DNA of 40,986 nucleotides from Candidatus Binataceae bacterium (GCA_050736455.1 JBOHWF010000227.1:1-40986), one strand, 5' to 3'; shown: positions 8,758 through 38,255, numbered from the stretch's first letter. The notes: generated from the sequence alone by a model not told the origin. Numbers and translations are program-made.

Positions 8758-9024
8758 TCAGTTGGTGCGCTTGAGATTGGGTACGAAGGCGAGCCAGGAG
8801 CGATCTCTGATGTCAGCGTCGAGCCGCGCGCCCGGTCGCGCGAAGCGGTAATGCCGCCCCGAGAGCGGACTCACGACCGTCAGCGCGGTTCTGCCGACGT
8901 ACTCGAATTGCGGAATCGACGCCGCGCCGGCCACCGAGGGTGGTCGCACGTTCAGCGATTTCGCCGCCAGGTCTGCGGGCGCCGGCACTTTGAGAGCTTG
9001 CTGATTGAGCCTACCGCAGCACAT
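8758..9024 (-). CDS. Hypothetical 88-aa protein, last gene of the orphan operon
   Basis: The ATG at 9024 overlaps the upstream gene's stop by 14 nt, suggesting translational coupling. Composition is normal, and the core FEYVGRTALTVVSPLSGRHYRFARPGARLDADIRDRSWLAFVPNL looks ordered. No family is recognised. Confidence 0.55.
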   Translation of the reverse strand: MCCGRLNQQALKVPAPADLAAKSLNVRPPSVAGAASIPQFEYVGRTALTVVSPLSGRHYRFARPGARLDADIRDRSWLAFVPNLKRTN

Positions 9025-9364
9025 CTTTTTCCTCCGCTTCGACCTGGGTTGGCGGATCCTCGGCGTAATAGCCCGGCGCGACCACTGGCGCCCTCGCGCT
9101 CAACCGTTCGAGCAGAATCGCGCCGCCCGACAGCGCCGGCCACAGGATCGCACGCTCGCGCCATCCCGAGGCGATCAATAGCGCGAATGGCGCAGCCACC
9201 CATAGGCTCAAGCAGTAGAAGCATTCAAAGACTTTGCCCCAAAAGCTCGGCTCGGCTCGGTTCCGAAGCTTTTTCAGGAGAGCGCCGGGACCGTCTTCGA
9301 AGGCCAGCAGATAAGTGACGCGCCAGACCGCAATCGCGCCTAAGATGAATTGAAAGAATTGCAT
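9011..9364 (-). CDS. DUF1360 domain-containing membrane protein
   Basis: 117 aa. It has the DUF1360-like pattern AVWRVTYLLAFEDGP...CFYCLSLWVAAPFALL and 3 hydrophobic segments. Confidence 0.65.
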   Translation of the reverse strand: MQFFQFILGAIAVWRVTYLLAFEDGPGALLKKLRNRAEPSFWGKVFECFYCLSLWVAAPFALLIASGWRERAILWPALSGGAILLERLSARAPVVAPGYYAEDPPTQVEAEEKDVLR

Positions 9365-9459: not shown

Positions 9460-11670
9460 CTAGCTGCGGCTGAGCGCCACGGCCGCCAACACGTGCTTGT
9501 CCAGATCGTCGAAATGGTAGGTTCCATCCGTGTGCTTGCTGTAGACGTCGAGCTCGATAGCAAAGCTGCAGGCGGTTGGTCCTCCATCGGGAAGCAGCGT
9601 CGAGAGCAGCCCATTTGCCGCCGGCGAAAGCTCGGGCGGTCCGGCCGCGCGCGTCGGCGGCTGATCCGAATCAGCGCCCGAGTCGAGTGTCCCGGTGCCG
9701 CCACCGAGGCCGCGCTCCCACCACAGTACGAAGCTCGACATGAAGGTGCTTGGCGGCAGCGGATTGGGCGGATTCGGATCGCTCAGCACGGCGTGATAGG
9801 CGCGATAGCCGACCTGGAAGGCGTCGCTGCCGTCACCGCTCAGGAATTGGCACTCGGCGGTGCTGCTGACGCCCGCCAGGCTGAAGCTGTCGATCTCGCC
9901 GACCACGGGGCGATTGTCCGCCCAGATTAGATGTGTCAGCGCCGCATACGGCACGTTGGTCGTGCTGCCCGGACCAGTCAGCGTCGGCATCAGGCGGATG
10001 AACTGGAAACTGACCGCGACATCGCCGGGGCCCGGCGCCACGCCGGGCGGCACGAGCCGATCGCCGTTGCTCTTGAAGACCTCGACCGCCACCAGGAACC
10101 GTCCATTGCCGGACCCCGGCGGCGGGCTGGCGCTCGGATTCAGCTTGGTCGTGTCATAGTACTGGTGGAACTGACCGCCCTCCCAGTCCTGATCTGGACT
10201 GGTCGACGCGACCGGCTGCACCGTCGGCGACTGATACGGGATGATATACAAGTCCTTCACCGCAACGCCGACGCTGTTGGTCACCGGCGGCTGCGGACCG
10301 AGGAGTTGCGGGTCGGTCTCGATACCCGAGGGGCCGAGCGCATACTTGTTCCACGAGATCGCATTCTCAATCGGCTGCATCGTGCCAATCGGATTGCCGA
10401 TGAGGTCGACAGGCGCGACGCTCAGCCGATAGTAATAGGCCCCGAGCGCTTCCATGCCGGGATCGAAATACAACATGAAGTTCAGGGTCTTGCACCACGG
10501 CGCATTGTTGGCATTGACCAGCCCGCCATTCGCCGGCGGGGCCGCGACGCTAAATGCGCCGGTTTGCGTTGTATCGGTGTTCCCTACCGGCACGCCGTAG
10601 TTGCTGTGCAGCGTGTGAGTTGAGGTCAAGCCGATCTGTTGCAGCGTGACGAAGTCCGTGCCGGGCGGCGGTGGCAGGTTGCCGCAAGCGCTGCCCGCCA
10701 AGGTCGAGAGGTTGGCGAAATCGTCGGCGGCAAAGTACTGATGCGCCGCCGCCCCGTCGTAGATGCAGACCAGCCCGCCGCCCTGCTGTTGAAAAACTTT
10801 GTAGTAGTAACTCCGATAGCAATTCCAGAGGATGAACGGGAACTGCTCGAAGCAAAACTGGAAAGAGCCGTCCGGCTGCAGGGTGGCCTCGCCGAGCTTG
10901 GACGATGAACAAAAACACCAGATCGGCCAGAGCGAAGGATGGGCAATGAAGTACTGTACCGCCTCCTGCGCGGAACTCGCCTCAAGCACCTGCAGATCCT
11001 GATGCAGCTCGGTGTTGGGCGCGAAACGCAAATCGATTTTGCCCGCGGCGATCGCGCGATTCACCCGCGTCTCGGCGACGCGGTCGAGCGGACCGGGATC
11101 AGGACCGGGGCGCGGCGGTGGCGGAAACATCACCGGATTCGCCGCCAGAAAGCGCTTGAGCTTGTCGATCAACGGCGGCACGTCGATCAGCAGGAACGGA
11201 AAGCAGCAGCAGGTCGATTCGTAAACCTCGACCACGCCGTTGCAAATCGGGAGGCAGAATTCAGCCGGCGGAAACGGGATGCGTCCGAGGGCGAAGCTCT
11301 TGAGCAGCGGCGCGCGATCGATGAAGAACGGGAAACACTTGCTGACCTTGCCGGCGAGACAGATCGTGAAACCCAGCCACCGCCGCCACCATTGCGCGGG
11401 AATCTCGATGGCGAGGTCTTTTTCCCAAGCCGGCACCGCCTGTTCGGCCGAGAATTTGACCAACAGCTTGGGATCGAGTTGGCTCGGGTCTGGAACGTCC
11501 GGGCCCAGCGCGATCGTACCCTTCAAACCCCGGGCAGGATCGGTATTGAGCTGGCCCTTCGCTCCCGCGACCAGTTTTTTCGCCGCCCCTCTGGCGTCAA
11601 TCGTGTAGAGGGCGAGGTTGGGTGTCTGCTCGTTCGGCTGAGCGCCGACGAACCTGGTTTCTACTTGCAT
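9460..11670 (-). CDS. Large hypothetical protein (736 aa), Cys- and Pro-rich, no recognisable domain
   Basis: There is a strong RBS (GGAGGGAG, 5 nt before the ATG at 11670). Amino-acid composition is normal, unlike the Arg/Ala-rich antisense ORFs. No signal peptide or TM segment is present. It contains 16 Cys including STCCCFPF and WCFCSS, and proline linkers (PPPPRPGPDPGP, PPPPG, PNPPNPLPP). Confidence 0.7.
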   Translation of the reverse strand: MQVETRFVGAQPNEQTPNLALYTIDARGAAKKLVAGAKGQLNTDPARGLKGTIALGPDVPDPSQLDPKLLVKFSAEQAVPAWEKDLAIEIPAQWWRRWLGFTICLAGKVSKCFPFFIDRAPLLKSFALGRIPFPPAEFCLPICNGVVEVYESTCCCFPFLLIDVPPLIDKLKRFLAANPVMFPPPPRPGPDPGPLDRVAETRVNRAIAAGKIDLRFAPNTELHQDLQVLEASSAQEAVQYFIAHPSLWPIWCFCSSSKLGEATLQPDGSFQFCFEQFPFILWNCYRSYYYKVFQQQGGGLVCIYDGAAAHQYFAADDFANLSTLAGSACGNLPPPPGTDFVTLQQIGLTSTHTLHSNYGVPVGNTDTTQTGAFSVAAPPANGGLVNANNAPWCKTLNFMLYFDPGMEALGAYYYRLSVAPVDLIGNPIGTMQPIENAISWNKYALGPSGIETDPQLLGPQPPVTNSVGVAVKDLYIIPYQSPTVQPVASTSPDQDWEGGQFHQYYDTTKLNPSASPPPGSGNGRFLVAVEVFKSNGDRLVPPGVAPGPGDVAVSFQFIRLMPTLTGPGSTTNVPYAALTHLIWADNRPVVGEIDSFSLAGVSSTAECQFLSGDGSDAFQVGYRAYHAVLSDPNPPNPLPPSTFMSSFVLWWERGLGGGTGTLDSGADSDQPPTRAAGPPELSPAANGLLSTLLPDGGPTACSFAIELDVYSKHTDGTYHFDDLDKHVLAAVALSRS

Positions 11671-29935: not shown

Positions 29936-30841
29936 ATGGAAGACGGTCGTCCGAGTTTCACCGCAATTGCTTCTGCGATGGTGCGGGCGGCGCATCTGCT
30001 CTGGGATGATCCGCCGAAAATCTTCGAGGATACATTGGCATTGCAGCTCTCGGGAGTTGCTAGCGAGGCGGAGCTCCGGCAGCGATTCGATGTACTGTCA
30101 AAGGAATTCGCCGCGGAATCCAGTCCCGAATTGGCTCAGGCTACGCTCCGTTATATCCGCTGCCCAGTGACGATGCGGAGTCGCTATGTGGAAGATGAAC
30201 TCGACCAGGCGATTAAGCGGGGCGTCTCACAGTACGTTATCTTGGGAGCCGGGCTCGACTCATTCGCGAATCGCAGGCCGAACGTGGTGAAAGTTCTGCG
30301 CGTGTTCGAAGTGGATTATCCAGCCACCCAAGCCTGGAAGCGGGCGCGTCTTCAAGAACTGGGCATAGCACTGCCGCCCAACCTCGTTTTCGTGCCGCTC
30401 GATTTTGAGAAGCAATCGTTGATCGAGAGTTTGCGAGAGAACGGCTACCGTCCTAACGTCCCCGCACTCTTCTCGTGGCTCGGCGTCACGCCGTACCTGA
30501 CGCGGGATGCGATTTTCGACACGCTGCGAATGGTCGCTTCGATGGCGCCGGGCACCGAGATCATTTTCCAGTATGTTCTTCCGGCAGCACTGCTGGACGA
30601 GGAGACTCGCCAAATCCTCGACCTGCTGAAGGCGAGAGGCGCTGCTCGGGGCGAACCGATGATTACGTTTTTCGAACCGGCGAGCCTTGCGGCGCAGGTT
30701 CGGGAGTTGGGATTCGGTGAGGTCTTGGAATTCGGACCCGAGGAGGCAAACGCTCGCTACTTTGCCAATCGCACCGACGGCCTCCGCATGCGCGATATGG
30801 ATCACTTCATGAAAGCGCGAGTCGGTCCGGCATCCGGATAA
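29936..30841 (+). CDS. Class I SAM-dependent methyltransferase (LCMT/TIGR00027-like O-methyltransferase family)
   Basis: FTAIASAMVRAAH..., the SAM-binding motif VILGAGLDSFA, and VFEVDYPATQAWK. The ATG at 29936 with GGAAGGGG upstream is preferred to the track start at 29696. The gene is visibly AT-richer than its flanks. Confidence 0.82.
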   Translation: MEDGRPSFTAIASAMVRAAHLLWDDPPKIFEDTLALQLSGVASEAELRQRFDVLSKEFAAESSPELAQATLRYIRCPVTMRSRYVEDELDQAIKRGVSQYVILGAGLDSFANRRPNVVKVLRVFEVDYPATQAWKRARLQELGIALPPNLVFVPLDFEKQSLIESLRENGYRPNVPALFSWLGVTPYLTRDAIFDTLRMVASMAPGTEIIFQYVLPAALLDEETRQILDLLKARGAARGEPMITFFEPASLAAQVRELGFGEVLEFGPEEANARYFANRTDGLRMRDMDHFMKARVGPASG

Positions 30842-31509
30842 TCTTTAAAGCCGTTCTGGGTACTTGCATCGGCGCGGCAGCCGCGGAGCTATTGAAGGAA
30901 GGCCTCCGCGGAGAGCTGCCGCCCGCGAGCAGAATCTTGCCCGCGTTCGGCCTCGAGGCCAGCACCGTCGCAGTGTGACCCCAGCGATTCTCGTTCATTG
31001 CCGATCCGCGAACGATCTCGTCTGAGAAGGGATCGTAAAGATCCGTATAGTCGCCGCCAGCGATCAGGGTCCATCCGGATTTCGGCCCGACGGTAATCAC
31101 TGTTGCGGTCTGAGCATTACGCTGATCAGTCATGTCAGGTCCGGCTTTGAAGGTATCCGTGGCCGGATCATAGAGTTCGCTTGATGAATAAGGGCTGCTG
31201 TAATAATCCGCCGGTCACCAAAACCTTGCCCGCATTCGGCCCTACCGGTATCAGGGTAGCTGAGGCTTCGATCCTAACTTCATTCATCGCTGGCCGGCGA
31301 GCAGCGAAGCGATTCAATCCGGGATCAAATAACTGCGCTGCAGGAGACGCGTGGCCTCCCTGCCCAGGGTCGTAACCAGCGATCAGAATTTGACCCCAGG
31401 TCGCCATCTTCGACGGCGACGTGGAAGCCGTCGGCAAGCCGAGGCGGCAAGCCGTCGCGATTGCTATCGCAACCGGGATGGCAGCGTACTGGAAGAACCG
31501 GGCTCTCAT
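30807..31509 (-). pseudogene. Decayed Kelch-repeat propeller gene (frameshifted and 3'-truncated)
   Basis: The N-terminal part (31509..31168) has a signal peptide MRARFFQYAAIPVAIAIATA and the first blades. The reading frame switches near 31190-31200, where SSELYDPATDTFKAGP continues in another frame into 31133..30807. Homology ends after AGKILLAGG, and the tail overlaps the methyltransferase 3' end. Confidence 0.75.
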
Positions 31510-31523
31510 CGTGTCCGCCTTTG

Positions 31524-31584
31524 GCGCCTGACGCGGCAGCAAGCTTGATCCGGCCCGCGCTGCTGATCGCGAATCGCCGCGCGA
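31524..31584 (+). repeat. Junction repeat R2
   Basis: GCGCCTGACGCGGCAGCAAGCTTGATCC...CGCTGCTGATCGCGAATCGCCGCGCGA matches R1. Confidence 0.75.
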
Positions 31585-31609
31585 GCGCGCTTCGCGTCTG
31601 TGCCTGTTG

Positions 31610-32923
31610 CTACTGATGGCGAGTCGGCACGTGGCTCTTTACGCCGGTACCCGATCGCGGCGGTGGTGACGACGGCAACTGCACGGCGACCACGTCCCCG
31701 GGCGCGCCATACATCAGCGGACCGGGCGCAAAGGTGTTGGTCGCCGGATCATAGAATTCGGTCGAAGCCTCTACTTTCCCGCAAGCGATCTCCGTTTTGA
31801 AGTGGCAAGCGGCGCCGCCGGCAATCAGAATCTTTCCCGCATGCGCCCCCGAAGCGATGGTTATCGCAGCGTGTTGCGCGCGCTGAGCCTTCATTTGTGG
31901 GCCGGGCGAGAAACTATTCGACGTGGGATCGTAGAGCTCGGTCGAAGACAACTTATGAAAATCGTTGGTCTCGCCGCCAGCGATCAGAATCTTGCCGGCG
32001 TTTGGGCCAGTGGGGATAGTCGTCGCGGTGTGAAAAGCGCGAGCCGTTTTCATGCTCGCGGTATCGCCCGGTGGCGCGAAACTGTTGGTCTCCGAGTCGT
32101 AGAGCTCGGTCGAAGCCAGAGCAACAGAGTGTTCCGAATCCCCCGGGCTCCAGCCACCGACCAGCAGAATTTTTCCGGCGTTAGGTCCGGTCGCTATGAG
32201 CCCGGCGATATGCCCATAGCGGCCGATGTTCATCGCGGGTCCGGGTGTGAAGGTATTGGTCACGGGGTCGTAGAGGTCTGTCGAGTTGGGGGGATCATGT
32301 GCGCCACCGGCAAAGAGAATTTTTCCTGAGTTCGGCCCGCTGGGAATCATGGTTGCCGTAGAATAATTAAAGACATGTGGCGAGTGCGGCCCGGCTACGA
32401 CAGTGTGGGTAAACGAATCGTAGAGATCGGTTGTGTCGGGTGCGGCCAGGAGTATCCAGCCGGATCTCGGTCCTGAAGTCAGCACCGTCGCGGTCTGAGC
32501 GACGTCACGCAGCGTCCTCGTCGACTGGCGGGCGAGCGTATTAGTAGCGGGGTCGTAGAGTTCGCTCGAGTAGCGGAACTCGCCCAAAAACATCTTGCCG
32601 AGCTGTTGGTAGTACCCGAGCGTGCTTGCCTGCTCGTCGGACCCGTTGCCAAGCAAAACCTTGCCGGCGTCGGGGCCCATCGGTATCATCGTTGCACTTT
32701 CTCCGAACTCCGCCGGTTTCCTCAACTGCGGCCCAGGCGCAAAGCGATTGGACAGTGGGTCGTACAGCTCGGTCTTCGAGGTGTACTCTCCGACGATCAG
32801 AATCTGGCCCCAAGTGGCCCTTTTTGATGTGACATGGGACGCCCAGCTCCTCTCACCTATGCACAGGCCTGCTGCGACTATTGCGGTAACCGCCGCTCGC
32901 CGCGCTGTGATCCTTGGCCTCAT
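31610..32923 (-). CDS. Exported Kelch-type beta-propeller protein, copy 1
   Basis: Signal-like N-terminus MRPRITARRAAVTAIVAAGLCIGERSWA. It has 7 repeats of [ST]E[LF]YDxxTNxF...GPNAGKILxxGG. A GTG at 33022, 6 nt after the muramidase stop, is an alternative start. Confidence 0.8.
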   Translation of the reverse strand: MRPRITARRAAVTAIVAAGLCIGERSWASHVTSKRATWGQILIVGEYTSKTELYDPLSNRFAPGPQLRKPAEFGESATMIPMGPDAGKVLLGNGSDEQASTLGYYQQLGKMFLGEFRYSSELYDPATNTLARQSTRTLRDVAQTATVLTSGPRSGWILLAAPDTTDLYDSFTHTVVAGPHSPHVFNYSTATMIPSGPNSGKILFAGGAHDPPNSTDLYDPVTNTFTPGPAMNIGRYGHIAGLIATGPNAGKILLVGGWSPGDSEHSVALASTELYDSETNSFAPPGDTASMKTARAFHTATTIPTGPNAGKILIAGGETNDFHKLSSTELYDPTSNSFSPGPQMKAQRAQHAAITIASGAHAGKILIAGGAACHFKTEIACGKVEASTEFYDPATNTFAPGPLMYGAPGDVVAVQLPSSPPPRSGTGVKSHVPTRHQ

Positions 32924-33028
32924 TGCTTTCCAGTGCGGCACTCTGCCACGGGCCTGGCGTCGTAACAGCTTCGGTCGATCGGAAGTTTGCCTCGGCGATA
33001 GGAGCGAGAGAAGACTGTACACATTACT

Positions 33029-33799
33029 TTACCGGTTTCGAAAGAGTTTCTTCTCGTACGCCCGGCGGTGTTCCAAACCTTTCGATGGCCGTTTTCCAGT
33101 CTGCAGATCATGCACATAAATATAGTGGTCAAATCTCTCAGCTGCGCCGAGATAGTCGCCGGTGAATTCCCGTGGGCTAGAACTCCCGTTGAGCTTCTTC
33201 AAAAGATCTAGCTCGGCGAAATGCTTTATATTGTATGCGAGACTTGTCAACGCATCGAATTGATTCCTAGTCAGCGGAACGCCGACGTTTCTCTTTACTC
33301 GATCTTCCGCTTTGCGCACATCTTGGGTGAAGAGCCAGTCCGCGTTCTCTTTGGTGATGACCTGAGTCTCGTCCCCGAGAGGCAGGAGGTGGCCGTATCC
33401 AATAGTGGGGTGACCCGCTTCATCGTCGTATACCTGCAGCTTAAGTGCCTCCTGTTGCTCCAGCCAGTCTCGCAGCCCTCTGCTCGAGGACATGTTGCTC
33501 GGCCCGCTGAAGTCTAACAGCTTGCTGAACGTGGCGTCGCTCGGTTTGATCAAGCCACTCGGAGCGCCACTCAAGTTTCGACCCTGAAACTCGACTATTG
33601 CCCTGACCGTCTCGGAGTTGATCGAGCTTGTGAGCAGCAACAGGCGGTCGCTGCCGCCGCTCTTGATTATCTGCACGTTGAGCAGCCCCTGCACCGTCTT
33701 TATGTCCTCGCTGTCGTTGCCCCAAGGTAACTTCGGAGGCGATCCGAAATACTTCGCATCTCCTATGGGGTTCGTAATGCGATTATTCAACGCTGGCAT
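33029..33799 (-). CDS. Endolysin-like muramidase: PG_binding_1-like N-domain plus GH24 (T4-type lysozyme) C-domain, copy 1
   Basis: MPALNNRITNP...DIKTVQGLLNVQ...TVRAIVEFQGRN is the PG-binding-like part. QEALKLQVYDDEAGHPTIGYGH aligns with T4L E11/D20/T26. No signal peptide is present. The RBS GGAAGGAGAG precedes the ATG at 33799. G+C is lower than in the flanks by eye. Confidence 0.85.
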   Translation of the reverse strand: MPALNNRITNPIGDAKYFGSPPKLPWGNDSEDIKTVQGLLNVQIIKSGGSDRLLLLTSSINSETVRAIVEFQGRNLSGAPSGLIKPSDATFSKLLDFSGPSNMSSSRGLRDWLEQQEALKLQVYDDEAGHPTIGYGHLLPLGDETQVITKENADWLFTQDVRKAEDRVKRNVGVPLTRNQFDALTSLAYNIKHFAELDLLKKLNGSSSPREFTGDYLGAAERFDHYIYVHDLQTGKRPSKGLEHRRAYEKKLFRNR

Positions 33800-33908
33800 C
33801 TCGACACTCTCCTTCCGGCCGCCGTCCGCACGCGGCAAAAGCCTTCCGAAGAGCGATGACGGAAAAGTCTAGTTGTCGTAAGGATGAAACTCTTCCTCCC
33901 TCGACGCG

Positions 33909-33981
33909 GAGGCCCTCAGCGCCTAAGGCCTTAACTGGACTGCGATTCCGCGTTCGCTGCTGATCGCGAATCGCCGCGCGA
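33909..33981 (+). repeat. Junction repeat R3
   Basis: GAGGCCCTCAGCGCCTAA still spells AEALSA*, the C-terminus of LLM paralog 2. CGCTGCTGATCGCGAATCGCCGCGCGA is the core shared with R1 and R2. Confidence 0.75.
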
Positions 33982-34004
33982 CTGCGATGACGCCAGGAGG
34001 GCGG

Positions 34005-35345
34005 CTATTGTTTTAGACTCGGGGCGGGGCTCTTTACGCCGTTCCCCAATCGCGGCGATGGTGACGACGGCAACTGCAGGGCGACCACATCCCCGGGTGC
34101 GCCATGCATCAGCGGACCGGGCGCGAAGCTGTTTGTGGCCGGGTCGTAAAGCTCGGTTGAGGCCAGAGACGCCGTCCTGCAGTCGCTCAGGTTGTGTGAC
34201 GCGGAGCCTACGCCTCCGATGATCAGAATCTTGCCGGCATTAGGCCCCGAAGCGATCGCGATCGCGCCCTGTTCCGTGCGGCGCCAGCGCATCGGCGGTC
34301 CGGGCACAAAGCGATTGGTCGCCGGGTCATAGATCTCGGTCGAGGAGAGCGCACACACCTCCATCGAGTTCGGTTGATCGGCGCGATCATCTTGACCGCC
34401 AGCGATCAGAATTTTCCCGGCATTCGGACCCGAAGGGATAACTGTCGCAGTGTGAAAGGCACGCGCGAACTGCATAGTTGCGGTGGCGCCCGGCGGCGCG
34501 AAAGTGTTGGTCGCTGGGTCGTAAAGCTCGGTCGAACTGAGAGAAACGATTTCCCCCTTACGGTTCTCGGCTCGGCCGCCAGCCAACAGAATCTTTCCGG
34601 CGTCGGGACCAGCTGCTATCACCGTTGCAGTATGCGCCTCTCGGTTGGCGTTCATAGCGGGTCCGGCTATGAATGCGTTGGTTGCGGGATCGTAGAGCTC
34701 GGTCGCGGTGACTGGGTCATCCGCGCCGCCAGCGAATAGAACCTTTCCAGTGTTCGGTCCAGCGGAAATCAAAGTCGCAGTGTTCGAAATGCGACTATGC
34801 TCCAGTTCCGGCCCATGCGCGAAGATATTGGCGAAAGGATCGTAGAGATCCGTTGAATTGCCCTCAGCTAACAGAATCCATCCTCTCTTTGCCCCTACCG
34901 TGATCACCGTCGCGGTAAAGGTGTCACGAGTGTCATTCATGGTTGGCGCGTGGCTGAAGGTATCGGAGTCTGGATCGTAAATCTCAGTCGATGCGAGCAA
35001 ACCAAATTTTTCGTCGTATCCGCCGGCGACCAAAACTTTTCCAGTGTTTGGTCCTAGCGGGATAACGGTGGCGGCCGCCCCGAGGCGCTCCTGGTGCATC
35101 ACGGGACGCCGCGCAGTAAAGCGATTCGAAACCGGGTCATACAATTCGGCCACGAACGGGAGGCGGCGAATCCCCTGTTTCTCGCCACCAACAATCAGAA
35201 TCTGGCCCCAGGTGGGAGTTCCGGATGACGGAGCAGCCGCTGAAATCCCGCCGACACACCATCCAACTAGGATCACAGCAGTGATCGCGACCACTGGGCG
35301 CCACACTTTGGCGTACTGCTGTAGTGCGGTCAAAAGGAGGACCAT
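34005..35345 (-). CDS. Exported Kelch-type beta-propeller protein, copy 2
   Basis: N-terminal anchor/signal VVAITAVILVGWCVGGISAAA. It has 7 [ST]E[LI]YDPxxxxF...GPNxGKxLxAGG repeats. The C-terminus is about 80% identical by eye to copy 1. The ATG at 35345 lies 5 nt after the muramidase stop. Confidence 0.82.
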   Translation of the reverse strand: MVLLLTALQQYAKVWRPVVAITAVILVGWCVGGISAAAPSSGTPTWGQILIVGGEKQGIRRLPFVAELYDPVSNRFTARRPVMHQERLGAAATVIPLGPNTGKVLVAGGYDEKFGLLASTEIYDPDSDTFSHAPTMNDTRDTFTATVITVGAKRGWILLAEGNSTDLYDPFANIFAHGPELEHSRISNTATLISAGPNTGKVLFAGGADDPVTATELYDPATNAFIAGPAMNANREAHTATVIAAGPDAGKILLAGGRAENRKGEIVSLSSTELYDPATNTFAPPGATATMQFARAFHTATVIPSGPNAGKILIAGGQDDRADQPNSMEVCALSSTEIYDPATNRFVPGPPMRWRRTEQGAIAIASGPNAGKILIIGGVGSASHNLSDCRTASLASTELYDPATNSFAPGPLMHGAPGDVVALQLPSSPSPRLGNGVKSPAPSLKQ

Positions 35346-35350
35346 AAAAA

Positions 35351-36140
35351 TCACCGCCGCAAAAAAAGGTCCCGTTCAGCACGCCGCCGGCCCGGCAATC
35401 CGGCGGGATGATGAGTGCCGGAACGGACAAAGAATTTGAATTGGTCTGCAGCACCGAGATAGTCACCGGTAAATTCGCGCGGGCTGGTGCTGCCATTGAG
35501 CATTTTCAGCAATGTCGAATTCTCGACCTCCCTCTTTTTCACATTGAAGCAAAAGCTGACGAGCGCGTCGAATTGGTTTTGTGTGAGCGGAACACCCACC
35601 AATCGCTTGACCGCGTCTTTCGCGGTTTGCAGATCGGTTTCAAGAAGGCCCTCTGCCTCCTGTTCGCTAATTTGGGGTCTGAACTGGTCCTCTGAATGGG
35701 AATGATTAATCTTGCCACGATGCACGTAATGCCCGAAGCCAATGGTAGTGTTTTCCCCTCCATCATGGTCGTGCAAAGTCAGACTTAAGGCTTCCTGTTT
35801 CTCGATAAATTTGATCCCTGAAATATTCACGTACTTGTCGCTCGGCCCACTGAACTCCAACAGTTTACGGAACGTTTCGTCGCCCGGTTTGATCAAGCCT
35901 CGGAGCACCACCCAAGTTTCGACCCTGAAACTCGACTATTGCCCTGACCGTCTCCGAGTTGATCGAGCTTGTGAGCGGCAACAGGCGGTCGCTGCGGCCG
36001 CGCTTGATTATCTGCACGTTGAGCAGACCCTGCACCGTCTTTATATCGTTGGTGTCATTACCCCAAGGCAGCCGCGGAACTGAACCGAAATACTTCGGAT
36101 CTCCCACGGGGTTCGTAATGCGATTATTCAACGCTGGCAT
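35351..36140 (-). pseudogene. Endolysin-like GH24 muramidase, copy 2, interrupted by a 2-nt deletion
   Basis: The N-domain ORF (36140..35865) and catalytic ORF (35911..35351, KQEALSLTLHDHDGGENTTIGFGH) are in different frames. Against copy 1 (GATCAAGCCACTCGGAGC), copy 2 reads GATCAAGCC--TCGGAGC at about 35899/35900. Confidence 0.7.
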
Positions 36141-36286
36141 CTTGACACTCTCCTTCTGGTCGCCGTCCGCAGGCGGCAAAAGCCTTCCGAAGAGCGATAA
36201 CGGAAAAGTCGAGTCGTCGTAAGGATGAAATTCTTCATCCCGCGACGCGGTGAACGAAGCGGATTCGCGCTGCGCCTCAATTCTTA

Positions 36287-37634: not shown

Positions 37635-38255
37635 CTACCAGCGGCGGACGCGGCCGGTATCGACGTGGACGAAGCCGGAGCGGGGATAGAAGCCCACCCC
37701 GCCTTCAGCGAGTGCGAGCGCGGCGCGTCGCAGCAACGTGAGCTCGACGCCCGGCAGGTGGATGTCGGCGGCCTTGCCCTCGACGTGCATGCTGTGGCGG
37801 GCGACGCCCTCGGACTGCGCCGCGAGCCAGGCGTTGGTCGCGGCCGATCGATAGCCCGAGATCAGATCGAACGGCTGCGTCGCGCCGAGGTTGGCGTGCA
37901 ACTCGGAGAGCAGGTCGAGCAGGCGCGGGTCGATCGGCTTGACCTCGTTGGCGCGGAAATCGCGGAAGAAATAGTTGAGCTGGTGCAGCGCGTCCGGGAC
38001 GTATGCGCCGCGCTCCCAATAGACGGTGCGGATACTCTCGCCCGTGTGGACGTTGTTGAAGGCCAGCGCGCGCGGCGCGTTAGTGGCGTAATCGCGACGA
38101 CGCCCCGGGCGGAGCAGCGCCGGCCAGAGCTCGATCCATTCGCGCGCCGCGACCACGCCGGGAATCGCGATCAGCGCCGCGCCTGCCACTGCGCTCTTGA
38201 TAAAGGCGCGCCGGGCGATCGCCACGGCGGGAGGTTTTTGCGCTGCCAACTTCAT
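37635..38255 (-). CDS. Tat-exported DUF882 / peptidase M15 protein (YcbK/MepK-like peptidoglycan endopeptidase)
   Basis: Twin-arginine signal ARRAFIKSAVAGAALIA. It also has SGYRSAATN and the metal ligands in HSMHVEGKAADI and FVHVD. Confidence 0.82.
   Translation of the reverse strand: MKLAAQKPPAVAIARRAFIKSAVAGAALIAIPGVVAAREWIELWPALLRPGRRRDYATNAPRALAFNNVHTGESIRTVYWERGAYVPDALHQLNYFFRDFRANEVKPIDPRLLDLLSELHANLGATQPFDLISGYRSAATNAWLAAQSEGVARHSMHVEGKAADIHLPGVELTLLRRAALALAEGGVGFYPRSGFVHVDTGRVRRW

What the first reader, a model, noticed from the sequence alone, without database searches (positions are those of the whole stretch)
31524..36250. Tandem array of endolysin-like GH24 muramidase and exported Kelch-propeller gene pairs, resembling an effector-immunity array
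Seen in sequence:
- There are two consecutive minus-strand pairs, 33799-33029 with 32923-31610 and 36140-35351 with 35345-34005. A third, decayed Kelch gene sits at 31509-30807.
- The upstream member has no signal peptide. It fuses a PG_binding_1-like N-domain to a T4-type GH24 domain with the E/D/T triad retained.
- The downstream member starts a few nt after the muramidase stop. It carries a signal or anchor sequence and 7 Kelch-like blades.
- The 5' UTR and N-domain of the two muramidase genes are highly similar at DNA level. The catalytic halves have diverged strongly, which is the conserved-N, variable-C pattern of polymorphic toxins.
- The muramidase genes look AT-richer than their flanks.
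- The window contains no holin, spanin, virion, integrase or secretion-system gene.

Inference: a cytoplasmically made PG hydrolase is tightly coupled to an exported repeat protein, duplicated with diversification, and accompanied by an orphan partner remnant. That is the layout of effector-immunity arrays, with the propeller as a candidate periplasmic lysozyme inhibitor. Alternatives are a domesticated prophage lysis remnant or a wall-remodelling pair. I do not know of a described lysozyme/Kelch pairing.
Basis: partly seen in the sequence, partly recalled or inferred. Interest (0 to 1): 0.72.

Follow-up and report, generated by a model that had tools for sequence, protein, structure and literature searches.

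The report
Signal-less lysozyme with exported Kelch partner
A soil bacterium of the uncultured family Binataceae carries tandem copies of a phage-type lysozyme gene, each followed by an exported Kelch propeller gene; this pairing recurs in related genomes and looks like a toxin plus immunity protein, but that is untested.

Summary
Window 30807-36250 (minus strand) holds mur2-kel2-mur1-kel1-kel3(remnant). Two corrections apply. mur2 is not one ORF: a 2-bp deletion at 35899/35900 splits it. Only pair 2 is separated by a few nt; pair 1 has a 105-nt gap.

mur1 is a PG_binding_1-like module fused to a GH24 muramidase. The T4-type E/D/T triad is intact and there is no hydrophobic segment. kel1 and kel2 are 7-bladed Kelch propellers with N-terminal signal or anchor segments.

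The lysozyme family occurs only in Binataceae-like genomes and metagenomes, never in viral contigs. It always sits in housekeeping context. Wherever downstream DNA is readable it is followed by a Kelch gene and/or an exported Sel1+LprI(DUF1311) protein.

About 15 of about 26 lysozyme copies are disrupted at different sites, while their partners mostly stay intact. Kelch relatives also follow a second class of signal-less, wall-hydrolase-like genes (PG_binding_1 plus a LAS/M15-like domain; weak hits only).

Best reading (about 0.5): an antagonistic wall hydrolase with a periplasmic Kelch immunity protein, analogous to pesticin/Pim, Tse3/Tsi3 and X-Tfe/X-Tfi. No delivery route was found and inhibition is untested. 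The "polymorphic toxin N-terminus" idea is not supported: the N-domain is a wall-binding module, homogenised locally by recombination. Novelty: new variant of a known kind.

The parts
36223..36240 (-). Perfect palindrome GGATGAA-N4-TTCATCC, 83-100 nt upstream of the mur2 ATG. Candidate operator.
   Evidence: this pattern occurs only twice in the window (0.11 expected), once before each mur gene; other loci carry a different palindrome at the same place.
35865..36140 (-). mur2 5' fragment: PG_binding_1-like N-domain ORF that ends at a premature stop after the frameshift.
   Evidence: N-domain profile positions 1-71. About 87-88% aa identity to the mur1 N-domain.
35899..35900 (-). Site of the 2-bp deletion (relative to mur1) that frameshifts mur2.
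   Evidence: alignment columns 415-416. Sequence read.
35351..35911 (-). mur2 3' fragment: complete GH24 domain in the +1 frame (stop-free from GTG 35911), with E/D/T retained.
   Evidence: PF00959, E 6.5e-26..
34005..35354 (-). kel2: intact exported 7-bladed Kelch protein. The start is GTG 35354, overlapping the mur2 stop, or ATG 35345.
   Evidence: Kelch_1, E 3e-26. (profile positions 3-428 of 429). (KD15 2.5 at residues 18-32).
33882..33899 (-). Second copy of the palindrome (1 mismatch), upstream of mur1.
33029..33799 (-). mur1: intact 256-aa PG_binding_1-like domain plus GH24 muramidase, with no signal peptide.
   Evidence: pLDDT 82. (best matches are GH24 endolysins, SpmX and P22 lysozyme)..
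31610..32923 (-). kel1: intact exported 7-bladed Kelch protein, 105 nt downstream of mur1.
   Evidence: (pLDDT 86, pTM 0.85). (KEAP1 and other Kelch propellers)..
30807..31509 (-). kel3: decayed Kelch remnant with signal segment and blades 1-3, one frameshift, and the 3' half missing. The intergenic DNA that normally precedes a mur gene comes before it, but no mur gene is present.
   Evidence: (profile positions 5-109 and 111-211 in different frames). repeat D12 (31547-31589 matches 33944-33986).

Best explanation
The locus is a tandem array of antagonism modules. Each unit has its own promoter region with a palindromic operator-like site. Each unit encodes a signal-less, endolysin-derived wall hydrolase (a PG_binding_1 wall-binding module plus a GH24 muramidase), followed by an exported Kelch beta-propeller.

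Proposed mechanism:
- The muramidase is made in the cytoplasm.
- It attacks peptidoglycan only when it reaches a periplasm. This could be a neighbour's periplasm, after release or delivery by a route not yet identified. It could also be the producer's own periplasm by leakage, as shown for X-Tfe-XAC2609.
- The Kelch propeller sits in the producer's periplasm and binds and blocks the enzyme, probably with surface loops, as Tsi1, PliI and X-Tfi do.

The array arose by tandem duplication. Recombination then homogenised the stretch from the Kelch 3' end through the UTR to the N-domain.

State of the three units:
- Unit 1 (mur1-kel1) is intact.
- Unit 2 has lost the enzyme by a frameshift but keeps its immunity gene (kel2).
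- Unit 3 is an immunity remnant (kel3).

What is shown: domain identities, intact catalytic residues, export signals, conserved synteny, lineage restriction, repeated enzyme decay with partner retention, purifying selection, and absence of phage context.

What is inferred: toxicity, inhibition by Kelch, and antagonistic use.
For: 1. Enzyme. PF00959 E 8e-26. Triad E117/D126/T132 conserved across the family. GH24 fold. No hydrophobic segment.

2. Partner. Kelch propeller with an N-terminal hydrophobic signal or anchor.

3. Synteny. In every non-redundant locus with readable downstream DNA, the N-domain+GH24 gene is followed on the same strand by Kelch and/or an exported Sel1+LprI protein. Flanks are unrelated housekeeping genes.

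4. Arrays recur. L004 has lys-Kel-lys-Kel followed by three Sel1+LprI (SLP) modules in two ORFs. L033 has one hydrolase followed by three Kelch genes.

5. Decay asymmetry. Eleven lysozyme copies are intact. About 15 are broken at different positions by frameshifts, internal deletions or truncation. These include N-domain stubs directly abutting intact Kelch genes (L028, L029). Most partners downstream of dead enzymes are intact. A profile search returned mostly 46-170-aa N-domain-only ORFs.

6. Intact copies and partners are under purifying selection, dN/dS 0.15-0.41.

7. Of eight Kelch relatives sampled without regard to neighbours, three sit behind this lysozyme (L004, L005, L032). Three more sit behind a signal-less PG_binding_1 plus LAS/M15-like protein (L007, L033, L034).

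8. No relative of the N-domain was found in 2.9 million viral contigs. No PADLOC defence family matched.

9. Precedent from papers:
- Pesticin is a T4-lysozyme-fold bacteriocin without a signal sequence, neutralised by periplasmic Pim (PMC3390615).
- Propeller-like Tsi1, X-Tfi-XAC2610 and PliI inhibit wall hydrolases by loop insertion. A signal-less effector reaches the producer's periplasm independently of its secretion system (PMC3391265; PMC10933484).
Against: - No secretion apparatus, adaptor, Hcp/VgrG/PAAR gene or recognised delivery motif lies within about 5-10 kb of any of the more than 20 loci.
- The N-domain is a wall-binding module, not a translocation or receptor domain.
- Partner type (Kelch or Sel1+LprI) does not track the lysozyme clade. 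Enzymes 77-86% identical sit next to either partner. Which partner, if any, is the inhibitor is therefore unclear.
- The Kelch family is far larger than the lysozyme family (over 7000 hits against tens) and sometimes stands alone (L031).
- Pairing of one partner family with two catalytic classes is unusual for specific inhibitors.
- Nothing biochemical has been tested.
- Some frameshifts in long-read MAGs (e.g. L013) could be assembly errors.
Confidence: 0.5

Rival explanations
1. Domesticated endolysin for regulated self-lysis, releasing DNA, vesicles or public goods. The Kelch and Sel1+LprI proteins act as periplasmic brakes or regulators, not as protection against neighbours.
For: - The architecture matches modular endolysins: PG_binding_1 plus GH24, with endolysins as the best PHROG and PDB matches.
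- There is no signal peptide.
- Each gene has its own palindromic operator-like site, suggesting tight regulation.
- No delivery system is nearby.
Against: - No holin, pinholin or membrane-disrupting partner is present in any locus.
- Frequent loss of the enzyme with retention of the partner is not expected if the partner only restrains its own enzyme.
- Tandem diversified copies are not expected for an autolysin.
Confidence: 0.15
2. A cell-wall remodelling pair. The Kelch protein is a periplasmic scaffold or activator, analogous to ScwA/MltD or NlpI-type regulators, for a hydrolase that is exported by an unrecognised route.
For: - An LprI-domain periplasmic protein (ScwA) modulates a lytic transglycosylase rather than inhibiting lysozyme (PMC7933661).
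- Kelch relatives pair with two hydrolase classes, as a general scaffold might.
Against: - The hydrolase lacks any export signal.
- The family is confined to one lineage and is patchy.
- More than half of the copies are pseudogenes.
- Genomic positions vary, and GC3 is atypical for the host. These are features of accessory, not housekeeping, wall enzymes.
Confidence: 0.12
3. An inert remnant of a prophage lysis cassette that was duplicated by chance.
For: - The GH24 domain is of phage type.
- The locus has lower GC than its flanks.
- One copy is frameshifted and one Kelch gene is decayed.
Against: - No phage genes occur in the window or in any related locus.
- No relative was found in viral contigs.
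- The pair is conserved in many genomes at different sites under purifying selection.
- Kelch relatives found in viral contigs are only 31-37% identical and have no lysozyme next to them.
Confidence: 0.05
4. An abortive-infection device. A cytoplasmic lysozyme is held in reserve and lyses the cell early when a phage holin or other membrane damage gives it access to the wall.
For: - The enzyme is signal-less, active-looking and not in a phage.
- The distribution is accessory and patchy.
Against: - No PADLOC family matched.
- The model gives no role to an exported partner.
- It does not explain retention of partners after enzyme loss.
Confidence: 0.04

Closest known systems
Pesticin / Pim (Yersinia pestis bacteriocin and its immunity protein)
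   Same: A T4-lysozyme-fold muramidase is made without a signal sequence. It acts in the periplasm and is encoded next to a periplasmic immunity protein specific for the activity domain (PMC3390615). Pesticin-T4L chimeras appear among the sequence matches of the GH24 profile (4arj).
   Different: Pesticin carries an N-terminal TonB-box translocation domain and a FyuA-binding domain. Here the N-terminus is a PG_binding_1 wall-binding module. Pim is a small protein, not a Kelch propeller. No receptor or import route is identifiable here.
T6SS muramidase effector-immunity pairs (Tse3/Tge1-Tsi3; V. fluvialis TssI2 pesticin-domain VgrG-TsiI2)
   Same: Signal-less peptidoglycan glycoside hydrolases are encoded in bicistrons with periplasmic immunity proteins, sometimes far from the T6SS cluster. 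This rests on my own knowledge and on the titles and abstracts of PMC3792639 and PMC9620997.
   Different: No T6SS gene or T6SS targeting domain occurs near any locus. The only link is a distant N-domain-like::Hcp fusion in an unrelated genome (P0265). The immunity fold is also different.
Xanthomonas X-Tfe-XAC2609 / X-Tfi-XAC2610, Tse1/Tsi1 and PliI
   Same: These are wall-hydrolase inhibitors with beta-propeller-like topology that plug the active site with a loop. The signal-less effector reaches the producer's periplasm, so immunity prevents cis-intoxication (PMC10933484; PMC3391265).
   Different: Those inhibitors are small partial propellers or lipoproteins, and the effectors are GH19 or amidase enzymes with an XVIPCD or T6SS route. 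Here the partner is a complete 7-bladed Kelch propeller of about 400 aa paired with GH24. Foldseek's top matches are eukaryotic-type Kelch domains, not these inhibitors.
Modular endolysins of phages of Gram-negative bacteria (N-terminal PG_binding_1 plus C-terminal catalytic domain, e.g. phiKZ gp144)
   Same: Same domain order and same GH24 catalytic core. The comparison with gp144 rests on my own knowledge.
   Different: The genes here are chromosomal with no phage genes, holin or spanin. They are absent from viral contigs and always coupled to an exported repeat protein.

Membership tests
GH24 / Phage_lysozyme (PF00959) | Profile match above the curated cut-off | tested here: met
   mur1 91.2 bits and mur2 C-terminal ORF 91.5 bits, against a cut-off of 22.3.
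GH24 / Phage_lysozyme (PF00959) | Catalytic Glu, Asp and Thr with T4-lysozyme spacing | tested here: met
   E117, D126 and T132 (+9, +6) are invariant or nearly invariant in the family alignment.
GH24 / Phage_lysozyme (PF00959) | Lysozyme fold | tested here: met
   AF2 pLDDT 82. Foldseek matches FAHEc1 endolysin, AbLys1, the SpmX muramidase domain and P22 lysozyme, with TMt 0.72-0.85.
GH24 / Phage_lysozyme (PF00959) | Muramidase activity | not testable with these tools
   Requires an enzyme assay.
Phage lysis cassette (endolysin with holin/spanin in a prophage) | Adjacent holin/spanin or other phage genes | tested here: not met
   None in 30 window ORFs or in related loci.
Phage lysis cassette (endolysin with holin/spanin in a prophage) | Relatives present in viral genomes | tested here: not met
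   The N-domain profile found no relative in IMG/VR.
Kelch-repeat beta-propeller | Kelch profile matches and a propeller fold | tested here: met
   Kelch_1/2/3/4/6 all above cut-off. Seven sequence repeats. AF2 pLDDT 86, with KEAP1 and KLHL Kelch domains as top matches.
Antibacterial effector-immunity pair (generic) | Toxin gene followed by a co-directional gene whose product is targeted to the compartment where the toxin acts | tested here: met
   Signal-less wall hydrolase followed by a Kelch gene with an N-terminal hydrophobic signal or anchor. The pairing is conserved in other genomes.
Antibacterial effector-immunity pair (generic) | Orphan immunity genes or immunity arrays, with loss of toxin and retention of immunity | tested here: met
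   About 15 disrupted against 11 intact lysozyme copies, with mostly intact partners. L028 and L029 have N-domain stubs followed by intact Kelch. L033 has three Kelch genes.
Antibacterial effector-immunity pair (generic) | Link to a delivery system (T6SS/T4SS/T7SS/CDI genes or targeting domains) | tested here: not met
   Nothing within 5-10 kb of any locus. Whole genomes could not be searched.
Antibacterial effector-immunity pair (generic) | Immunity protein binds and neutralises the toxin | not testable with these tools
   No complex prediction or assay was available.
Pesticin-type bacteriocin | N-terminal TonB-box translocation domain and receptor-binding domain | tested here: not met
   The N-terminal 100 residues belong to the PG_binding_1 superfamily. 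Only about 15 residues precede it. The conserved MPxxNNxITxSVGDP stretch is not demonstrably a TonB box.
Polymorphic toxin system (conserved trafficking N-terminus, swappable C-terminal toxins) | The same N-terminal domain fused to different toxin domains | tested here: not met
   Within the subfamily the C-terminus is always GH24 or a remnant of it. The wider hits are ordinary multi-PG_binding_1 hydrolases.
Known proteinaceous lysozyme inhibitors (Ivy, MliC/PliC, PliI, PliG, LprI) | Sequence membership of the partner protein | tested here: not met
   kel1 and kel2 hit only Kelch families in Pfam and NCBIfam. PF07007 (LprI) is found only in the alternative partner in other genomes, at 22.8-29.7 bits against a cut-off of 22. 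That domain itself is unproven as an inhibitor (PMC7933661).

The most novel reading that the evidence does not exclude
Exported 7-bladed Kelch propellers of this family (thousands of members in soil and sediment metagenomes) may be a new, widespread class of periplasmic immunity proteins, or inhibitors, for endolysin-derived wall hydrolases of more than one catalytic type (GH24 muramidase and a LAS/M15-like peptidase). In Binatota these would serve an interbacterial antagonism system whose delivery route is not any of the recognised secretion systems, for example bacteriocin-like release and uptake.
Probability: 0.3. Interest if true: 0.75.

Novelty: new variant of a known kind. Interest (0 to 1): 0.55.

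Why it matters
If the Kelch protein is an inhibitor, three things follow:
- It adds a new fold to the short list of proteinaceous lysozyme and wall-hydrolase inhibitors.
- It gives a first candidate antagonism system in Binatota, an abundant but uncultured soil phylum.
- It suggests how phage endolysins are recruited as chromosomal weapons.

Kelch inhibitors of GH24 enzymes would also matter for endolysin-based antimicrobials, as a potential resistance mechanism.

The repeated decay of the enzyme with retention of the partner is a clean natural experiment. Cheap heterologous assays could test it.

Tried and rejected
1. Prophage origin. I scanned viral contigs with the N-domain profile and found nothing. 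A scan with the Kelch profile found only distant Kelch proteins with no adjacent lysozyme. Rejected.

2. Polymorphic-toxin N-terminus. A profile search of 5.8 billion proteins found only GH24 fusions or stubs. A search of 1.84 billion representatives found generic PG_binding_1 hydrolases. Rejected.

3. Tat hitch-hiking export of the lysozyme by its Kelch partner. An RR pair exists in kel1, but it is not conserved in kel2, kel3 or homologues. Dropped.

4. A structured 5'UTR RNA. There was no Rfam hit other than a sub-threshold CcsR1 match (E 0.22), and the fold z-score was 0.23. Rejected.

5. Partner type tracking the lysozyme clade, as cognate specificity would predict. Not seen.

6. Anti-phage defence. 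No PADLOC match.

7. Recovering the window's own contig or an independent copy of mur2, to verify the frameshift. A flanking protein was not on record. The NCBI MAG is broken into contigs of 1.7-1.9 kb at this array.

8. Identity of the 172-aa protein upstream of the L030 Kelch gene. No Pfam, PHROG or PDB match.

9. A complex model of mur1 with kel1 was not possible with the tools available.

Full report
**WHAT IS IN THE WINDOW**

On the minus strand between 36250 and 30807 the order is mur2, kel2, mur1, kel1, kel3-remnant.

mur1 (33799-33029, 256 aa):
- It matches Pfam Phage_lysozyme/GH24 at E 8e-26 over residues 115-249.
- It keeps the T4-lysozyme triad as E117, D126, T132, with the canonical +9 and +6 spacing.
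- An AlphaFold2 model (pLDDT 82) matches GH24 endolysins, the SpmX muramidase domain and P22 lysozyme.
- Its first 100 residues give no Pfam hit on their own.
- They are nonetheless clearly homologous to N-termini that pass the PG_binding_1 cut-off (24.0-26.1 bits against 23).
- A profile of this domain retrieves thousands of ordinary PG_binding_1 proteins.
- The protein has no hydrophobic stretch (maximum 15-residue Kyte-Doolittle mean 0.77).

kel1 (32923-31610) and kel2 (35345/35354-34005):
- Both match five Kelch Pfam families.
- Both contain seven sequence repeats.
- The kel1 model folds as a 7-bladed propeller (pLDDT 86, pTM 0.85). It resembles KEAP1-type Kelch domains.
- Both begin with a basic stretch followed by a hydrophobic segment (KD 1.85-2.5). 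This fits a signal peptide or signal anchor.

kel3 (31509-30807) covers only profile positions 5-211 of 429, in two frames.

**CORRECTIONS TO THE OBSERVATION**

- The interval 36140-35351 is 790 nt and is not an ORF. Relative to mur1, mur2 lacks two bases (GAGTGG to GAGG) between 35900 and 35899. The N-domain frame therefore stops at 35865, and the complete GH24 domain lies in another frame (35911-35351).
- I could not verify this against another assembly. A flanking protein is not on record, and the NCBI MAG of this organism is broken into contigs of 1.7-1.9 kb exactly here (P0001, P0021, P0079).
- Only kel2 abuts the muramidase stop. kel1's ATG is 105 nt downstream of mur1's stop. This spacing is similar to the 75-110 nt seen in other genomes.

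- The two units are 83-93% identical in DNA from about 110 nt upstream of the ATG to the end of the N-domain (36253-35836 against 33912-33493). Identity then falls abruptly to 45-60% across GH24 and most of Kelch. It rises to 92% at the Kelch 3' end and about 84% in the DNA just after the Kelch stop.
- The mur genes are AT-richer than their surroundings. GC is 0.52-0.56 against 0.63-0.66, and GH24 GC3 is 0.57-0.60 against about 0.8 in neighbouring genes.
- Thirty other ORFs in the window encode metabolic enzymes, regulators, an MFS transporter, a TolC-like protein, a MepK-like peptidase and a hybrid histidine kinase. There is nothing phage-like, no integrase and no secretion machinery.

**DISTRIBUTION**

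- mur1 is 100% identical to a partial 'lysozyme' of a Candidatus Binataceae MAG.
- A profile of the N-domain found only six loci among 185,579 species-representative genomes. All are Binataceae or 'uncultured delta proteobacterium' MAGs.
- It also found 16 metagenome loci and none in 2.9 million viral contigs.

**CENSUS WITH HOME-MADE HMMs**

Wherever downstream DNA is present, the N-domain+GH24 gene is followed on the same strand by one or both of two partners:
- a Kelch gene of this family; or
- a protein of about 340-360 aa that I call SLP.

SLP has a signal peptide, a Sel1-like repeat and conserved cysteines. Its C-terminal PF07007 (LprI/DUF1311) domain scores 22.8-29.7 bits against a cut-off of 22.

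Examples:
- L002, L005 and L032: lys-Kelch.
- L008 and L017: lys-SLP.
- L018: lys-Kelch-SLP.
- L001: lys-SLP-stub-Kelch.
- L004: lys-Kelch-lys-Kelch followed by three SLP modules in two ORFs. This is a second tandem array.

Flanking genes are housekeeping genes and differ between genomes.

**DECAY ASYMMETRY**

- Eleven lysozyme copies are intact.
- About fifteen are disrupted at different positions. These comprise frameshifts in L013, L019, L023, L024, L025 (two), L026/L027 and the window's mur2. There is also an internal deletion in L012 and 5' truncation in L014b.
- Other disrupted copies are stubs in L001 and L032, and N-domain stubs (profile positions 1-54) that run straight into intact Kelch genes in L028 and L029.
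- A profile search of the 5.8-billion-protein collection likewise returned mainly 46-170-aa N-domain-only ORFs.
- The partner downstream of a dead enzyme is usually intact.
- Intact enzymes, Kelch and SLP genes show dN/dS of 0.15-0.41. They are therefore functional genes evolving fairly fast.
- Some frameshifts in long-read MAGs may be errors. The deletions, and the Illumina-metagenome cases, are not easily explained that way.

**KELCH BEYOND THE LYSOZYME**

- The Kelch family is large, with more than 7000 hits.
- I looked up eight relatives without regard to their neighbours. Three follow this lysozyme (L004, L005, L032).
- Three follow a different signal-less protein made of PG_binding_1 (24.2 bits in L033) plus a domain with the LAS-peptidase motifs SGxR...HxxGxAxD...HxH.
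- That second domain has only weak hits: Peptidase_M15_3/VanY at E 0.03-0.1 and an endolysin PHROG at E 9e-5 (L007, L033, L034). L033 carries three Kelch genes in a row.
- One follows a 172-aa protein of unknown type (L030), and one stands alone (L031).
- The M15-like assignment is moderate evidence only. No PDB sequence match was found.

**INTERPRETATION**

The following features form the signature of toxin-immunity modules:
- a cytoplasmically made wall hydrolase;
- a tightly linked exported partner;
- tandem diversification;
- repeated loss of the enzyme with retention of the partner;
- multi-partner arrays;
- accessory, lineage-restricted distribution;
- atypical base composition.

Published precedents make the mechanism plausible:
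- Pesticin is a T4-lysozyme-fold bacteriocin without a signal sequence, neutralised by periplasmic Pim (PMC3390615).
- Tsi1, X-Tfi-XAC2610 and PliI are beta-propeller-like inhibitors that plug wall hydrolases with a loop. X-Tfe-XAC2609 reaches its producer's periplasm without a signal peptide and independently of its secretion system (PMC3391265; PMC10933484).
- DUF1311/LprI proteins are cited as T6SS immunity-type proteins (PMC12135965). The LprI domain itself, however, has no direct evidence as a lysozyme inhibitor (PMC7933661).

I therefore favour an effector/bacteriocin-like muramidase with Kelch as a periplasmic immunity protein (confidence about 0.5).

**WHAT DOES NOT FIT OR IS MISSING**

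- No delivery system or targeting motif was seen near any locus.
- The N-domain is a wall-binding module. Its relatives are fused to M15, SLT, M74, CHAP and VanY domains in ordinary hydrolases.
- Within this subfamily the C-terminus is always GH24. The polymorphic-toxin reading of the conserved-N, variable-C pattern is therefore not supported.
- The N-domain is only slightly more conserved than GH24 across the family (58% against 52% mean identity). The much sharper step in the window (87% against 46-49%) points to local recombination or gene conversion.
- Enzymes 77-86% identical sit next to either Kelch or SLP. Which partner neutralises the enzyme is therefore open.

**RIVALS**

- Regulated self-lysis: 0.15.
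- A wall-remodelling enzyme-regulator pair: 0.12.
- Inert prophage remnant: 0.05.
- Abortive infection: 0.04.

These explain the partner-retention pattern, the absence of a holin and the absence of phage context less well.

**NOVELTY**

Muramidase effectors with periplasmic immunity proteins are known, and propeller-like hydrolase inhibitors are known. A full Kelch propeller in that role was not found in the literature searched. Nor was its coupling to endolysin-derived GH24 (and apparently LAS-type) enzymes in Binatota with no recognisable delivery route.

I rate it a new variant of a known kind, with interest 0.55.

Noticed in passing
window 33882-33899 and 36223-36240: A palindrome GGATGAA-N4-TTCATCC occurs exactly twice in the window (0.11 expected), each copy 83-100 nt upstream of a mur ATG. 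Related loci carry a different palindrome (GGCTGAAC-N2-GTTCAG) at the equivalent place. It is a candidate operator for an unknown regulator.
   Followed up: partly
L001 10853-11866; L008 6847-7926; L004 8729-11892; L012 6415-7482; L013 6753-9101; L014 8338-9393: A family of exported proteins of about 340-360 aa alternates with, or accompanies, Kelch downstream of the lysozyme. Each has a signal peptide, a Sel1-like repeat, conserved cysteines and a C-terminal PF07007 LprI/DUF1311 domain. The family is absent from this window.
   Followed up: partly
L033 5349-6038, L034 4526-5038, L007 5998-6707: Signal-less proteins with PG_binding_1 plus a LAS/M15-like domain (weak Pfam and PHROG hits; HxxGxAxD and HxH motifs) sit directly upstream of Kelch genes of the same family. 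In L033 three Kelch genes follow in tandem. In L007 the hydrolase is split into two ORFs.
   Followed up: partly
L041 4248-5201 (P0265, GCA_009772055.1): A 317-aa protein fuses an N-domain-like PG_binding_1 module (residues 1-92) to a T6SS Hcp domain (PF05638, 43 bits). No other T6SS gene lies within its flanks. This is the only hint of a link between this kind of N-domain and a secretion system.
   Followed up: partly
L030 4451-4969: A 172-aa Cys/His-rich protein lies directly upstream of a Kelch relative and has no Pfam, PHROG, PADLOC or PDB sequence match. The syntenic locus L031 lacks it.
   Followed up: partly
window 37635-38255 (-): A MepK/YcbK-like Peptidase_M15_2 (E 1e-55) with a twin-arginine-type N-terminus (RRAFIKSAVAGAALIA) lies about 1.4 kb from the array. 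It is probably a housekeeping murein endopeptidase unrelated to the array.
   Followed up: no
window 9460-11670 (-), 9011-9364 (-), 8758-9024 (-): A 736-aa ORF with host-like GC3 has no Pfam hit at E 1e-5. Two small adjacent ORFs of 117 and 88 aa also have no hit.
   Followed up: no
window 32590-32650 (kel1 residues about 98-118): kel1 carries an insertion of about 15 residues with a short helix (low pLDDT) in blade 2 that kel2 and other homologues lack. kel2 has its own insertions elsewhere. Variable loops of this kind could be specificity determinants.
   Followed up: no
window 31405-31496 (-): A sub-threshold Rfam match to CcsR1 (20 bits against a gathering score of 65, E 0.22) lies inside the kel3 remnant. 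It is most likely chance.
   Followed up: no
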